Origin: a virus
Lineage: Duplodnaviria; Heunggongvirae; Uroviricota; Caudoviricetes
Virus record (IMG/VR): IMGVR_UViG_2547132269_000011
Coordinates: 1 to 7,675 of that record
Direction: 5' to 3' (one strand)
Length of the DNA: 7,675 nt
The notes below the pieces were generated by a model that searched no databases, was not told the origin of the DNA, and was given only the letters and a program-made list of their open reading frames with translations. Numbering within the stretch: the first letter of the stretch is position 1; every line of letters starts with the position of its first letter. The position numbers were made by a program, and so were the translations under genes. This document shows positions 1-6,010 of the stretch, one piece after another.

Positions 1-1212
1 GTGGCAAGAACGACACGCCCCCTGACCAACACAGAAGTTCTGCGCGCTAAAGCGTTAGAAAAGGATCTAACGTTACATGATGGCGATGGCCTTTTTCTGC
101 TCGTTAAAACGAACGGTAAGAAGTTGTGGCGTTTCCGTTATCAACGTCCAGCAACAAAACAGCGGACAATGATGGGGCTTGGTGCTTTCCCCGCCCTTTC
201 ACTTGCTGATGCTCGACGGTTAAGAGCGGATTACCTTGCTTTGTTGGCTAATGGTATAGACCCACAAGTTCAAGCTGAATTTATCGAAGAACAACAACAG
301 ATAGCTCTAGACAGTATTTTTTCGACTGTTGCGACCAACTGGTTCCAGATAAAAAGCAAAAGCGTTACCCCTGATTACGCTAAAGATATATGGCGCTCAC
401 TGGAAAAAGACGTATTCCCTGCCATCGGGGAGATTCCTGTCCAGCAAATAAAAGCCCGAACACTAGTTGAAGCCCTTGAGCCAATCAAAGCTCGTGGAGC
501 ACTCGAGACAGTGCGCCGACTTGTACAGCGCATTAACGAGATAATGATTTATGCCGTAAACACTGGTCTGATTGATGCCAATCCAGCATCAGGTGTTGGG
601 ATGGCCTTTGAAAAGCCCAGAAAACAAAACATGCCGACGCTGAGGCCAGAAGAATTACCAAAGCTGATGCGTTCTTTGTTCATGTCAAATCTGTCTGTTC
701 CGACTCGCTGTCTCATTGAATGGCAGCTTCTGACTCTAGTGCGTCCTGCTGAAGCTTCCGGTGCTCGATGGGCAGAGATCGATCTCGATGCAAAGCTCTG
801 GATGATTCCAGCCGAACGGATGAAGGCCAAACGAGAGCACATAGTTCCTTTATCCACGCAGGCATTAGAAATTCTAGAAGTGATGCAACCTATTAGCGCA
901 CATCGTGAGCATGTTTTCCCAAGCAGAAATGACCCTAAACAACCAATGAATAGCCAGACTGCGAATGCCGCGCTTAAGCGCATTGGTTATGGTGGGAAGC
1001 TTGTTGCTCATGGATTACGTTCTATAGCAAGTACAGCACTAAATGAAGCTGGTTTTAATCCGGACGTAATTGAAGCGGCACTTGCTCACAGTGATAAAAA
1101 TGAAGTTCGAAGAGCATACAATCGTTCAACTTACCTTGAACAACGTATAGACTTGATGAATTGGTGGGGTGAATTTGTGCACAACCGCCACCGCCTCATG
1201 CAAGCGATTTAA
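1..1212 (+). CDS. int: P4-family tyrosine integrase (site-specific recombinase); the 5' end may be clipped by the window edge
   Basis: 403-codon ORF from a GTG at position 1 to TAA at 1210-1212. N-terminal arm-binding-type region (LTNTEVLRAKALEKD...DGDGLFLLV...ANGIDP) and C-terminal catalytic motifs typical of tyrosine recombinases (AHGLRS H-x-x-R box; RAYNRSTY with the candidate catalytic Tyr). Sits at the element edge, as P4-like integrases do next to a tRNA attachment site. Confidence 0.9.
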   Translation: MARTTRPLTNTEVLRAKALEKDLTLHDGDGLFLLVKTNGKKLWRFRYQRPATKQRTMMGLGAFPALSLADARRLRADYLALLANGIDPQVQAEFIEEQQQIALDSIFSTVATNWFQIKSKSVTPDYAKDIWRSLEKDVFPAIGEIPVQQIKARTLVEALEPIKARGALETVRRLVQRINEIMIYAVNTGLIDANPASGVGMAFEKPRKQNMPTLRPEELPKLMRSLFMSNLSVPTRCLIEWQLLTLVRPAEASGARWAEIDLDAKLWMIPAERMKAKREHIVPLSTQALEILEVMQPISAHREHVFPSRNDPKQPMNSQTANAALKRIGYGGKLVAHGLRSIASTALNEAGFNPDVIEAALAHSDKNEVRRAYNRSTYLEQRIDLMNWWGEFVHNRHRLMQAI

Positions 1213-1239
1213 TAAGATTGCACAGCAAAGGAGTCTTAA

Positions 1240-2578
1240 ATGCCAAATAACTACCATCAATACATCGAAGACGTTAGTGATGATATAAAGACATGTCTTG
1301 AAGGAATGGGATGCCAACCCATACTTTTTGTTGGATCGGGATTAACCAAGAGATATCTTTCTGGCCCAAACTGGGAAGAACTTCTTCAGCAACTTGCTAA
1401 TGAATGTCCTAACATCGATAAAAGATTTGCCTATTATAAACAGAAATACCCCGAGTTGATTGATATCGGCAGTGTATTTTCTGATTCTTATAACGAGTGG
1501 GCATGGGGTGATGGAGAGAAAGAATTTCCAGCAGAGTTATTTGATGCAGGCAATGAGCCAAGTATTTATTTTAAATACAAAGCATCTAGTATTTTCAACT
1601 CATTGTTACAAGAAAAAGAAATCGTAAACAACGGTGAAATTGAACTTCTGAGAAAGATTCACCCTCATTCAATCATCACAACAAATTACGACAAATTACG
1701 ACAAATTACTTGAATCGATATATCCTGAGTTTACCCCCATTATAGGCCAAAAAATCCTTTACGCTAATCACGGTAGCATTGGTGAAATACTTAAAATACA
1801 TGGTTGCTGCTCCACTCCTGAAAGCATAATAATAAACCGCGATGACTACGATGACTTCATAAAGAAGAAGAAATATTTAAGCGCAAAACTGCTTACTTTC
1901 TTTGCTGAACACCCTCTTCTATTTATAGGTTACAGCGCAGAAGACTCGAACATAAAAAACATACTATCTGATATTGATGAACTACTTTCAGAAAATGGAG
2001 ATGTCATTCCAAATATATACATTTTAGAATGGACGAGCAAACAAAATGAAAGTGAATACCCACGCCGTGAACGGCTGATTCAAGTATCTGCAAATAAAAG
2101 CATTAGAATAAAAAGTATAGTAGCAAATGACTTCTCTTGGGTATTTTCAGCGTTTGGCGCGAACAGAGCACTTGATAACATAAATCCAAAATTATTGAGG
2201 GCACTTTTAGCTCGCACTTACGATCTCGTCAGAACTGATATACCTCGCAATCCTGTCCAAGTTGATTACCGAGTTTTATCAAGCATTAGCGAGTCAGAAG
2301 GTGAATTAGCGAAATTATATGGTATCGCCACATCGTCAGATGGTATGGCATTTAATGCCAGTTATCCTTTTACTTTAACCACGCTAGGGCAATCACTTGG
2401 TTTCAAAGGCTGGCATGATGCGAACAAACTATTAGAAGTAGTTAAAAACATCACGAACGTAGACATCAAGACATTCGATAACAAATACCACTATGCAATA
2501 ATGAACGGTGATGAGATTCAGTCCCATAGATATTCAAACTATCTTCGAGAACTCCTCGAAAAGGTTAGGGATGGATAG
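1240..2578 (+). pseudogene. SIR2-like (SIR2_2 / ThsA-DSR-type NAD+-dependent) candidate antiphage gene, interrupted by a +10 bp frameshift; repaired product about 442 aa
   Basis: ATG at 1240 with AAGGAG 6 nt upstream. Frame 1 gives 157 aa with a Gly-rich loop (PILFVGSGLTKRY) and ends ...IITTNYDKLRQIT* at 1711-1713. Frame 2 is open without stops from 1712 to 2578 and continues the domain (ESIYPEF...KIHGCC...LLFIGYSAEDSN...). Deleting one 10-bp unit joins them as ...ITTNYDKLLESIYPEF.... The Asn motif and the His motif fall on opposite sides of the shift. Visibly AT-richer than the flanking P4 core genes. Confidence 0.75.
1681..1710 (+). repeat. Three tandem copies of the 10-bp unit ACAAATTAC(G/T); two copies are coding-native, the third is the frameshifting insertion
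   Basis: Sequence acaaattacg acaaattacg acaaattact at 1681-1710. 10 is not a multiple of 3, so the extra unit shifts frame 1 into frame 2 and creates the TGA at 1711-1713. Confidence 0.9.
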
Positions 2579-2637
2579 GAGTTTGAGTTAGGAATAAAGG
2601 CTCCATAATTATTCATATAGCCTTACTACTTTTTATG

Positions 2638-2659
2638 GCCGCTTTAATAGCGGCTTTTT
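2638..2659 (+). terminator. Candidate intrinsic terminator downstream of the SIR2-like gene
   Basis: Stem GCCGCT (2638-2643) / AGCGGC (2649-2654), loop TTAAT, followed by TTTTT (2655-2659); 60 bp after the cargo stop codon. Confidence 0.5.
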
Positions 2660-2978: not shown

Positions 2979-3551
2979 TTACACAGACTGACGTGATGCC
3001 AGTTGCGCACTTTTACGCGAAAAAATCATGTTCTGCGCAGGGGTGAATTTTTCACGGCTGTCGTCCACCGAAGCCGCGTCAGGCCTGAATCTGATGGTCG
3101 TTAAAATGTCGCTATCCTGTGCGGAATAATTAATTTTTTCACCCTTCGCAAGCCAGGACAGAAGGGCTTCACGCAGGGCATCTGTGGCACGCTGTATGGC
3201 ACAGTTTCGGGCAATGGCCGTCAGCTCACTGTAGCCCATCAGCTCCGGTGCCAGTGCCGCCGCCAGTGCTGTGCCGTGCTGCTGCATAAAATCATTCAGC
3301 CGGTCGCGGATGCTGATGTGCTGAACGGCTTCATGCGAACGAATATAACGACCGGCGGCCTGATTCACCTGCCATTTTCTGACTTCGATAATATTGCGTA
3401 ATTCGTCCAGGCGACTGACGTTTCTGCCTTCTCCTGACAGAAGCCGCAGATATTCCTGTTCGGCCGCAGCCAGCTCATTTTTGCGTTGCAGCCATGCTGC
3501 TTTGTTATTCTGACAGGTGTCAAAGGCCTGCTGTAAGGCTGTGCTTTCCAT
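2979..3551 (-). CDS. psu: Psu, polarity suppression protein (Rho antagonist / capsid decoration), 190 aa
   Basis: 190-aa ORF beginning MESTALQQAFDTCQNNKAAW..., which I recognise as near-identical to phage P4 Psu. Last gene of the sid-delta-psu block and ends next to cos. Confidence 0.92.
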   Translation of the reverse strand: MESTALQQAFDTCQNNKAAWLQRKNELAAAEQEYLRLLSGEGRNVSRLDELRNIIEVRKWQVNQAAGRYIRSHEAVQHISIRDRLNDFMQQHGTALAAALAPELMGYSELTAIARNCAIQRATDALREALLSWLAKGEKINYSAQDSDILTTIRFRPDAASVDDSREKFTPAQNMIFSRKSAQLASRQSV

Positions 3552-5025: not shown

Positions 5026-5129
5026 TGTTCACCTCTGTTCACCATAAGAAAAAAGATAAGTAATACAGTAAGTTAAAGGGTGAACAATCGCAGTGATGAC
5101 TGTTCACCGTCTGTTCACCACTGTTCACC
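5026..5129. repeat. crr: Cluster of six TGTTCACC octamer iterons (P4 crr/ori-type alpha-binding repeats)
   Basis: TGTTCACC at 5026-5033, 5036-5043, 5101-5108, 5112-5119 and 5122-5129 on the plus strand, and one inverted copy (GGTGAACA) at 5079-5086, mostly at about 10-bp spacing, flanked by AT-rich DNA. It lies between sid and the early operon, where P4 has its cis replication region. Confidence 0.7.
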
Positions 5130-5709: not shown

Positions 5710-5739
5710 TTGCCTTTTTCCGGCATTTGCGGATATAGT
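5710..5739 (+). promoter_or_regulatory. Candidate sigma70 promoter (PLE-like) driving the immunity/early operon
   Basis: TTGCCT (5710-5715), 18-nt spacer, TATAGT (5734-5739), just downstream of vis and about 30 nt upstream of seqA. A 5' stem-loop GCTGCCG/CGGCAGC follows at 5746-5765. Confidence 0.45.
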
Positions 5740-5769
5740 TTTTCCGCTGCCGCAAAATCGGCAGCCGGG

Positions 5770-5794
5770 CGTAGGAACCCGTGTAACTCGAAGG
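5770..5794 (+). promoter_or_regulatory. seqA-like target site for the immunity RNA
   Basis: CGTAGGAAC (5770-5778) and CTCGAAGG (5787-5794) recur in the same order at 6013-6021 and 6046-6053. Both blocks are complementary to blocks in 5967-5987. Confidence 0.55.
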
Positions 5795-5929
5795 CGACAT
5801 ATGACGCGCCATGCGTCTTTTTTTGTGTCGCAATCAACGCCACAGAGCGCCAGATTATGGTGTGGCGTGTGGTTTGCCGTGCAGGTATGATCCTGTTCGC
5901 AATCGCATGTTATGCCACTGAGTCAATGG

Positions 5930-6010
5930 TAGCTCAGGCGGGGCAGCCTCCGGGCTGGCCGGTATTCTTCGAGGCCGGTATTCCTACCCCCGTCTGGGCT
6001 ATCGCCATCG
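5930..6010 (+). ncRNA. cI: P4-type CI immunity RNA region containing seqB; exact ends not determinable from sequence
   Basis: CTTCGAG (5967-5973) and TTCCTAC (5981-5987) are antisense to the CTCGAAG and GTAGGAA blocks of seqA and seqC. Local hairpin CAGCC/GGCTG at 5944-5957. The position between the two target sites matches the P4 immunity architecture. Confidence 0.45.

What the first reader, a model, noticed from the sequence alone, without database searches (positions are those of the whole stretch)
1681..1710. 10-bp tandem duplication splits the SIR2-like gene between its two catalytic motifs
Two copies of ACAAATTAC(G/T) arise naturally from the codons for TTNYDKLL; a third copy shifts the frame and truncates the product at 157 aa, while about 290 downstream codons stay stop-free. 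This indicates a very recent inactivation, an assembly error, or a slippage-prone on/off switch. Recent inactivation would be consistent with selection against a toxic NADase, but that is speculation.
Basis: seen in the sequence. Interest (0 to 1): 0.6.

Follow-up and report, generated by a model that had tools for sequence, protein, structure and literature searches.

The report
Frameshifted SIR2 gene on P4-like satellite
A candidate anti-phage NADase gene carried by a P4-like phage satellite in Escherichia albertii has been knocked out by one extra copy of a 10-base repeat; this is an ordinary loss-of-function mutation at a spot that is naturally prone to copy-number slips, not an assembly error and probably not an evolved on/off switch.

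Summary
Window 1681-1710 holds three tandem copies of ACAAATTAC(G/G/T). The reading frame stops at 157 aa, and deleting one copy restores a full-length SIR2_2 ORF. The allele is real: an independent Logan re-assembly (SRR8358079) is identical over all 7675 bases, and the exact 157-aa product is in NCBI for E. albertii (WP_024164950.1, MCZ8871427.1). All 25 related loci whose DNA or match length I could check have two copies, and the intact two-copy proteins occur on more than 1,700 contigs. The site is slippage-prone. A three-copy product also occurs in Salmonella sp. NW101, and a one-copy (-10 bp) product occurs in S. enterica. Each off allele sits on only about 5 contigs. The DNA repeat is not conserved in diverged homologues that keep the same amino acids. 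There is no restart codon and no +1 frameshift signal. The duplication is not the first lesion: an older nonsense change (E443*, TAG at 2576) is shared with a two-copy E. albertii sister allele. The best reading is a lineage-fixed pseudogene made by slipped-strand duplication at a chance repeat. The gene itself (system 9 in the later numbering of the hotspot systems of Rousset et al. 2022; PADLOC PDC-S25) showed no defence phenotype when tested. Interest is low.

The parts
1..1212 (+). P4-type tyrosine integrase (403 aa), the left border of the satellite's variable 'hotspot'
   Evidence: Pfam Arm-DNA-bind_3, Phage_int_M and Phage_integrase. The exact protein is listed in 879 blocks of the collection and sits next to an intact 452-aa SIR2 in all 10 places shown.
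1228..1233 (+). Shine-Dalgarno-like AAGGAG, 6 nt upstream of the ATG at 1240
   Evidence: Read directly from the sequence.
1240..1713 (+). Truncated SIR2_2 ORF (157 aa). It keeps the GSG loop and the TTNYD Asn motif but lacks the catalytic His.
   Evidence: The exact product equals WP_024164950.1 / MCZ8871427.1 of E. albertii.
1583..1583 (+). Lineage-specific non-synonymous change (GTA to GCA, V115A), seen only together with the three-copy allele
   Evidence: The A115 two-copy protein is absent from the collection.
1678..1692 (+). Codons for T147-T148-N149-Y150-D151, the SIR2 catalytic Asn motif. They overlap the first repeat copy.
   Evidence: Invariant in 35 homologues; aligned with ITTNYD of DSR2 and TTNYD of SeThsA.
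1681..1710 (+). Three tandem copies of ACAAATTAC(G/G/T). One copy (10 bp) is extra relative to every intact relative.
1711..2575 (+). Out-of-frame remainder of the gene: 288 stop-free codons in the +1 frame, including the His motif (H184 codon at 1799-1801) and the whole C-terminal domain. The first ATG/GTG/TTG in this frame is TTG at 2195.
2576..2578 (+). Second, older lesion: GAG to TAG (E443*). It removes the last 10 residues (EEFELGIKAP), including an aromatic residue conserved in 35 of 35 homologues.
   Evidence: It is shared with the two-copy E. albertii allele L007.
2579..2608 (+). The former last 9 codons plus the original TAA stop of the 452-aa gene
   Evidence: Alignment to WP_001133507.1 genes.
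2637..2659 (+). Terminator-like hairpin GGCCGC-TTTAATA-GCGGC followed by TTTTT
   Evidence: Read from the sequence. The consensus scan did not flag it.
2979..3551 (-). psu (190 aa), the right border of the hotspot. This exact allele occurs only on the 5 contigs that carry the 157-aa ORF.
   Evidence: Pfam Psu.

Best explanation
The window is a P4-like satellite integrated at ssrA in Escherichia albertii. Its variable int-psu hotspot carries a single-gene SIR2_2 protein, normally 452 aa, with a ThsA/DSR2-type NADase fold. It is a candidate defence gene, but that role is unproven. In the Enterobacteriaceae alleles of this gene, the codons ACA-AAT-TAC-GAC-AAA-TTA-CTT for TNYDKLL happen to form a near-perfect 10-bp tandem repeat. 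Slipped-strand mispairing during replication added a third copy in one E. albertii lineage. That shifts the frame by +1 directly after the catalytic Asn motif and ends translation at 157 aa, before the catalytic His. The product cannot be an active SIR2 enzyme, and the downstream part has no usable start codon, so the gene is a pseudogene in this lineage. Shown here: the allele is real, it is fixed in the sampled lineage, all checked relatives have two copies, the site has also produced +10 and -10 alleles elsewhere, and an older nonsense change (E443*) came before the duplication. Inferred: the mechanism (replication slippage), the loss of function, and that the event was neutral or nearly so because the gene may already have been impaired by E443*.
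For: The repeat and frameshift are confirmed.

The allele is real. Logan contig L004 is identical to the window over 7675 nt. The exact 157-aa product is in NCBI for E. albertii and was read on 5 contigs. The window's exact Psu occurs on those same 5 contigs only.

Two copies is the norm. This holds for 7 of 7 complete E. coli genomes, 10 of 10 loci with the identical integrase, L005, L006, L007 and L013, and the more diverged homologues L008-L012. The intact proteins are on 715 and at least 1000 contigs.

The site is a hotspot. P0004 (Salmonella sp. NW101) equals the simulated three-copy product on the V115 background. P0005 (S. enterica) has the tail expected of a one-copy allele. The repeat is the longest near-tandem repeat in the intact gene.

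It is not a designed feature. Homologues with the identical TTNYDKLL peptide have ACAAATTATGACAAACTACT, ACCAATTATGACAAATTACT or ACAAACTATGACAAGTTATT. The Lys that the repeat needs varies across the family as K/G/N/T/Q/C/E/R.

There is no rescue route. No ATG/GTG/TTG lies in the downstream frame before 2195, and no SD-like element lies near the stop.

Order of lesions: E443* and the synonymous change at window 2188 (A) are shared with the two-copy L007 allele, while V115A and the synonymous change at window 2095 (T) are private to the window.

Other null alleles arose by other routes: an ISKpn26 insertion, a -1 frameshift in an A5 run and a Pectobacterium frameshift.

Family identity: Pfam SIR2_2 at 95.5 bits, PADLOC PDC-S25 at E = 1.5e-83, and a fold nearest to ThsA, DSR2 and KomC.
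Against: Recurrence of ±10-bp alleles at one site in up to three backgrounds could also be the footprint of a usable switch. The three-copy state can revert precisely in principle. No read-level data were available, so a minor two-copy subpopulation in the isolate cannot be excluded. Whether E443* truly impairs the protein is not shown: the tail is conserved but is modelled as coil in the monomer. Whether the Salmonella sp. NW101 three-copy allele is an independent event or the same allele moved by the satellite could not be decided, because I could not fetch its DNA.
Confidence: 0.8

Rival explanations
1. Reversible contingency switch. The 10-bp repeat toggles between two copies (ON) and three copies (OFF) by slippage, which lets satellite-bearing lineages silence and later re-activate a costly NADase.
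For: The frame-shifting repeat lies inside the coding region. Three-copy alleles occur in E. albertii and Salmonella sp. NW101, and a one-copy allele occurs in S. enterica. Two-copy and three-copy alleles exist in closely related E. albertii. The downstream frame is still stop-free.
Against: There are only 2-3 copies of a 10-nt unit, far below the tract lengths of known contingency loci (own knowledge). The DNA repeat is not conserved where the peptide is. Off alleles are on about 15 of more than 1,700 contigs. All 5 contigs of the lineage are three-copy. The one-copy allele cannot revert. No 4- or 5-copy alleles were found. A revertant of this allele would still carry E443* and V115A.
Confidence: 0.07
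2. Adaptive loss. The frameshift was selected because the SIR2 NADase is toxic or costly in this host, so inactivation is favoured rather than neutral.
For: Several independent null alleles of the same gene exist (+10, -10, -1 in an A5 run, IS insertion, E443*). Related SIR2 effectors deplete NAD+ (PDB entries for ThsA, DSR2 and KomC).
Against: The gene is intact on more than 1,700 contigs against a few dozen nulls. The family is strongly conserved, with 67% mean column identity across distant taxa. Rousset et al. cloned the gene under its native promoter (pFR88) among the systems they introduced into E. coli K-12 (PMC9122126). No signal here separates selection from drift.
Confidence: 0.1
3. 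Assembly or sequencing artefact: the true sequence has two copies.
For: Short tandem repeats can be miscounted by some technologies. A sister assembly (L007) contains an implausible A31 run in the same gene.
Against: The window is identical to an independent Logan assembly of SRR8358079. The same product appears under two NCBI accessions and on 5 contigs of different lengths. A 30-nt array is shorter than an Illumina read and is not a typical collapse or expansion error.
Confidence: 0.02
4. Recoding or a split gene: a +1 ribosomal frameshift in 1652-1713, or re-initiation, still yields a functional enzyme, or two fragments that reassemble.
For: The 0 and +1 frames overlap for 59 nt. A +1 shift at ACU-UGA-A would give ...DKLRQIT-ESIY..., a net insertion of only three residues (read from the sequence).
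Against: There is no SD-like stimulator. By inspection of the sequence, using own knowledge of the prfB site, tRNA-Thr on ACU re-pairs poorly with CUU in the +1 frame. No canonical start codon lies in the downstream frame before 2195. No relative has this arrangement, so it is not a conserved recoding site.
Confidence: 0.02

Closest known systems
The lacI CTGG x3 frameshift hotspot and the Streisinger slipped-strand model (own knowledge: Farabaugh et al. 1978; Streisinger et al. 1966; Levinson and Gutman 1987)
   Same: A short tandem repeat inside a coding region gains or loses exactly one unit, giving recurrent frameshift null alleles at the same site. The gain allele can revert precisely.
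   Different: The unit here is 10 nt with 2 copies, against 4 nt with 3 copies. The rates are unmeasured. The alleles here come from natural populations of three genera, not from a laboratory mutation spectrum.
Simple-sequence contingency loci, for example phase-variable type III restriction-modification mod genes in Haemophilus and Neisseria (own knowledge)
   Same: A defence-related gene is switched off by a copy-number change of an intragenic repeat.
   Different: Those tracts have many copies of 1-7-nt units, are conserved as tracts, switch at about 1e-2 to 1e-5, and vary within strains. Here there are 2-3 copies, the repeat is not conserved, and off alleles are rare and lineage-bound.
The SIR2_2 single-gene cargo of the P4 int-psu hotspot: WP_001133507.1, cloned as pFR88 by Rousset et al. 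2022 (PMC9122126); their system 9, 'Sir2-like (likely a NADase)', in the Domainator paper (PMC11754643); PADLOC PDC-S25
   Same: Same gene, same position between int and psu, and 99.7% nucleotide identity apart from the 10-bp insertion.
   Different: The window copy is frameshifted and also carries E443* and V115A. The intact gene was not among the 7 of 19 cloned hotspot systems that protected against the 8 phages tested, so its defence role is unproven.
ThsA (Thoeris), DSR2 and KomC SIR2 NADase effectors
   Same: The SIR2 fold is the nearest structural neighbour. The Asn (TTNYD) and His (KIHG) motifs align.
   Different: Sequence identity is only 16-21%. The protein lacks the SLOG domain of ThsA and the long sensor region of DSR2, and no partner genes are present. 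Its C-terminal domain of about 150 aa matches no Pfam family. NADase activity is untested.

Membership tests
SIR2_2 (PF13289) defence-type sirtuin-like NADase | Pfam model hit above the gathering score | tested here: met
   The repaired ORF scores 95.5 bits against a cutoff of 24.5, over residues 144-266. The match begins at residue 144, so at most the last 14 residues of the 157-aa product fall within the matched stretch.
SIR2_2 (PF13289) defence-type sirtuin-like NADase | Catalytic Asn and His motifs present in one polypeptide | tested here: not met
   Both motifs are encoded (N149 at 1684-1686, H184 at 1799-1801) and are invariant in the family. In the window they lie in different reading frames.
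SIR2_2 (PF13289) defence-type sirtuin-like NADase | NAD+ hydrolase activity and anti-phage protection | not testable with these tools
   Literature only: the intact gene (pFR88) was not among the seven systems validated by Rousset et al..
P4-like satellite hotspot cargo (Rousset et al. 2022) | Located between int and psu of a P4-like element that also carries delta, sid, an alpA-like gene, the immunity RNA and the DUF5375/primase genes | tested here: met
   Pfam on the neighbouring genes, annotated relatives, Rfam C4/isrK hits, and WP_001133507 listed 21 times in their Table S1A.
Frameshift pseudogene | Reading frame disrupted relative to intact orthologues, with no alternative start or recoding signal | tested here: met
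.
Simple-sequence contingency (phase-variable) locus | Intragenic repeat whose copy number sets the reading frame | tested here: met
   One, two and three copies give OFF, ON and OFF.
Simple-sequence contingency (phase-variable) locus | Repeat tract conserved among orthologues | tested here: not met
   Homologues at 79-93% identity with the same TTNYDKLL peptide have 2 or more mismatches between the two copies. The Lys varies in the wider family.
Simple-sequence contingency (phase-variable) locus | Frequent ON/OFF polymorphism among close relatives | tested here: inconclusive
   One two-copy and five three-copy E. albertii contigs, but they carry different psu alleles. Off alleles are under 1% overall.
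Simple-sequence contingency (phase-variable) locus | High measured switching rate | not testable with these tools
   Needs a fluctuation assay or deep read data.
Programmed +1 ribosomal frameshift (prfB type) | Slippery P-site codon before a poor stop, with an upstream SD-like stimulator, conserved in orthologues | tested here: not met
   The site reads ACU UGA A and no SD-like motif lies in 1660-1713. The arrangement is absent from all relatives.

The most novel reading that the evidence does not exclude
The chance 10-bp repeat has been co-opted as a low-copy, reversible mutational switch. Enterobacterial lineages carrying this P4-like satellite silence the SIR2 NADase by a 2-to-3 copy gain and can regain it by precise loss when phage pressure returns. 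The +10 and -10 alleles seen in Escherichia and Salmonella would be its population footprint.
Probability: 0.06. Interest if true: 0.55.

Novelty: new member of a known kind. Interest (0 to 1): 0.22.

Why it matters
The main value is for annotation. In this E. albertii lineage the PDC-S25/SIR2 gene should be scored as a pseudogene with two lesions, not as a defence system or a 157-aa 'hypothetical protein'. More generally, it gives a clean natural example of codons for a conserved catalytic motif creating a slippage hotspot that produces recurrent null alleles of a mobile candidate immunity gene. It also supplies ready-made natural alleles (452 aa, 442 aa, and the +10, -10 and -1 frameshifts) for testing whether this still-unvalidated SIR2 protein has any activity or cost.

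Tried and rejected
One gapped pattern able to catch 1-4 copies found only two-copy hits in genome contigs and metagenome contigs and nothing in viral contigs. Those two alleles therefore rest on protein sequences plus simulation.

2. Exact look-ups of simulated 4- and 5-copy products, one-copy products on the E. coli and E. albertii backgrounds, a three-copy product on the S. enterica background, and 'clean' 442-aa or A115 452-aa proteins: none is in the collection.

3. The phage and plasmid collections gave no match.

4. Structure prediction to judge whether E443* is damaging was inconclusive. The tail has pLDDT of about 78 but is coil in the monomer model.

5. The literature held no description of this frameshift or of PDC-S25 function.

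6. A split gene with two functional halves was rejected because no canonical start codon lies in the downstream frame before 2195.

7. The many 'partial' Salmonella proteins were considered as possible IS insertions. I rejected that as unlikely because the contig ends fall at variable positions in the most AT-rich part of the gene.

Full report
**1. Observation**

Window 1681-1710 reads ACAAATTACG ACAAATTACG ACAAATTACT. Tandem Repeats Finder reports period 10, 2.9 copies, 100% matches and score 58. The ORF starting at ATG 1240, preceded by AAGGAG at 1228-1233, ends at TGA 1711-1713 after 157 codons with the tail ...TTNYDKLRQIT. The +1 frame is open from 1652 to the stop at 2576-2578, with 288 codons after the repeat. 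Deleting one 10-bp copy gives a continuous 442-aa ORF. A period-10 run of 19 matching positions never occurred in 300 Markov-1 simulations of the window (maximum 11). The two-copy state of intact genes is within chance expectation: 21 of 500 simulated genes hold an equally good near-tandem duplication.

**2. What the gene is and where it sits**

The repaired protein matches Pfam SIR2_2 (95.5 bits) and the PADLOC candidate PDC-S25 (E = 1.5e-83), with weaker hits to ThsA, LmuA, Dsr1 and Dsr2. By sequence it aligns with SeThsA, DSR2, BcThsA and KomC. TTNYD matches their Asn motif and LKIHG matches the catalytic His motif. An AlphaFold model of a 96%-identical homologue (mean pLDDT 76) has ThsA, KomC and DSR2 as its nearest solved folds. 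N149 and H184 are invariant in 35 homologues that share 52-96% identity with the intact protein. The frameshift falls directly after the Asn motif and 33 residues before the His, so 'between its two catalytic motifs' is right.

The neighbours are a P4-type integrase (1-1212), psu, delta, sid, an alpA-like gene and a DUF5375 gene. The P4-type immunity RNA region is also present (Rfam c4-a1b1, isrK and C4 at 5733-6009). Annotated relatives sit next to ssrA. This is the int-psu hotspot of P4-like satellites described by Rousset et al. 2022. Their Table S1A lists the intact protein WP_001133507 as a 'SIR2_2' cargo 21 times. They cloned it with its native promoter as pFR88 from E. coli M605, and the insert starts with the same bases as window ~1120. 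It was not among the seven cloned hotspot systems that protected against their eight phages. The Domainator paper lists it as their system 9, 'Sir2-like (likely a NADase)'. The gene is therefore a candidate defence gene whose function is unproven.

**3. Is the three-copy allele real?**

Yes.
- The exact 157-aa product is in NCBI as WP_024164950.1 and MCZ8871427.1 (Escherichia albertii) and was read on 5 contigs.
- The Logan re-assembly of SRR8358079 (L004) is identical to the window over all 7675 bases.
- The window's exact Psu variant occurs on those same 5 contigs and nowhere else. The allele therefore marks one E. albertii lineage, in which 5 of 5 sampled contigs have three copies.

**4. 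What relatives carry**

Two copies is the norm.
- All 7 complete E. coli genomes that hold the gene match over 10 fewer bases than the query. The three I aligned have two copies.
- All 10 loci retrieved through the identical integrase have two copies and an intact 452-aa ORF.
- So do the one genome-contig hit, the one metagenome hit, L007 and L013.
- The intact proteins are on 715 contigs (Enterobacteriaceae allele) and at least 1000 contigs (Salmonella allele).

Three facts show that the site is mutable.
- P0004 from Salmonella sp. NW101 (5 contigs) is exactly the product simulated by adding one copy to the WP_001133507 gene.
- P0005 from S. enterica (four TPA accessions, 5 contigs) ends TTNYLNRYTLNLPPL. 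That is the product of deleting one copy, given two changes that are synonymous in the native frame.
- The repeat is the longest near-tandem repeat in the intact gene.

No 4- or 5-copy products exist in the collection. Null alleles made by other routes also exist: an ISKpn26 insertion in E. coli MEI4BO-21, a -1 frameshift in an A5 run at codon 287 in GCA_902850075.1, and a frameshifted Pectobacterium allele. In this rough count, 2-3 of about 7 independent lesions map to 20 nt of a 1359-nt gene. That makes it a hotspot, but all the nulls together are under 1% of contigs.

**5. Is the repeat a designed feature?**

No.
- Homologues that keep the peptide TTNYDKLL but are 93%, 87% and 79% identical at the protein level read ACAAATTATGACAAACTACT, ACCAATTATGACAAATTACT and ACAAACTATGACAAGTTATT. 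Synonymous drift has freely destroyed the repeat.
- In the wider family the Lys that the repeat needs is K/G/N/T/Q/C/E/R.
- With this gene's own codon usage, the chance that TNYDKLL is written as a perfect 9-mer repeat is about 0.002. It is a lineage-specific accident.

**6. Order of events**

Compared with intact alleles, the window also has V115A (1583), two synonymous changes (2095, 2188) and GAG to TAG at 2576, which is E443*. L007 (E. albertii GCA_027565795.1) sits at the same ssrA site, with 6.8 kb of chromosomal flank 99.97% identical to L004's. It has two copies and V115 but shares E443* and the synonymous change at 2188 (A).

With E. coli as outgroup, the E. albertii ancestor was two-copy plus E443*. 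The window lineage then gained the 10-bp copy, V115A and one synonymous change. L007 gained an L-to-P change and an odd in-frame A31 run. E443* removes EEFELGIKAP. Position 445 is aromatic in 35 of 35 homologues, and positions 447 and 449 are mostly hydrophobic. The tail is therefore under purifying selection and its loss may already impair the protein. That is an inference: the monomer model shows the tail as coil. Neither a 'clean' 442-aa protein nor an A115 452-aa protein exists in the collection.

The duplication is recent, with 5 point differences from L007 in about 5 kb, but it is the second lesion and not the first.

**7. Can the gene still work?**

This is unlikely. The 157-aa product lacks the His and everything after it. 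The downstream frame has no ATG, GTG or TTG until TTG at 2195, which would give only the last 127 aa, a segment with no Pfam match. A +1 shift at ACU-UGA-A would restore the frame. However, no SD-like stimulator is present, and by inspection tRNA-Thr on ACU would re-pair poorly with CUU in the +1 frame (comparison with prfB rests on my own knowledge). No relative has this arrangement.

**8. Verdict**

This is a real, lineage-fixed frameshift pseudogene of a candidate SIR2 defence gene. It was produced by slipped-strand duplication at a chance 10-bp repeat that is a genuine but low-frequency mutational hotspot. Assembly error is rejected, and an evolved phase-variation switch is not supported. 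Adaptive loss of a toxic NADase is untested and is not suggested by the population data. It is a new instance of a textbook mechanism, useful for annotation and as a set of natural alleles, and of low general interest.

Noticed in passing
It cuts the last 10 residues, including an aromatic residue conserved in 35 of 35 homologues. It is shared with a two-copy E. albertii allele, so it is older than the duplication.
   Followed up: yes
L007 8496-8529 (E. albertii GCA_027565795.1, JAQANX010000049.1); corresponds to window ~1747: The sister allele has an A31 run in place of CA6 inside the SIR2 gene. It is in frame and gives 8 extra Lys plus a Q-to-K change. This could be a real homopolymer expansion or an assembly artefact.
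   Followed up: partly
L003 4765-5951 (E. coli MEI4BO-21, NZ_CM149565.1): An ISKpn26 (IS5-like) element is inserted in the 5' part of the same SIR2 gene. The 414-aa protein P0046 has the same IS-derived N-terminus.
   Followed up: partly
L013 1444-2313 (GCA_902850075.1): Another natural null allele: a -1 frameshift in an A5 run at codon 287, with the normal two-copy repeat. P0115 from Pectobacterium versatile (310 aa) is a further frameshifted allele.
   Followed up: partly
cluster members P0003, P0006-P0012, P0018-P0020, P0024, P0025, P0029 (Salmonella enterica): Dozens of 'partial' SIR2 proteins end at aa 99-117 or restart at aa 119-139. Contigs break at variable positions in the most AT-rich part of the gene, which looks like coverage drop-out in draft assemblies and not an insertion.
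   Followed up: no
window 5733-6009 (+): Rfam hits c4-a1b1 (5733-5785), isrK (5746-5823) and C4 antisense RNA (5922-6009), all above their gathering scores. This is the P4-type immunity RNA region of the satellite.
   Followed up: no
window 5026-5129: Six TGTTCACC octamers: + strand at 5026, 5036, 5101, 5112 and 5122, and - strand at 5079. TRF also picks them up as 10-11-bp repeats. From memory they resemble the iterons bound by the P4 alpha protein (crr/ori).
   Followed up: no
L014-L023: The identical int plus intact SIR2 module occurs at two chromosomal sites: next to ssrA (L017-L019, L021, L023) and next to ABC-transporter/HlyD-type genes (L014-L016, L020, L022). In L015 and L017 delta is called as 81 aa instead of 166. 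In L018 an rve/Mu-type transposase gene lies where psu should be.
   Followed up: no
window 1240-2578 versus the whole window: The SIR2 gene has 37% G+C against 49.5% for the window. It differs from the E. coli copies by only 0.3%, while the rest of the satellite differs by about 1.4%. This fits a recently exchanged cargo cassette.
   Followed up: partly
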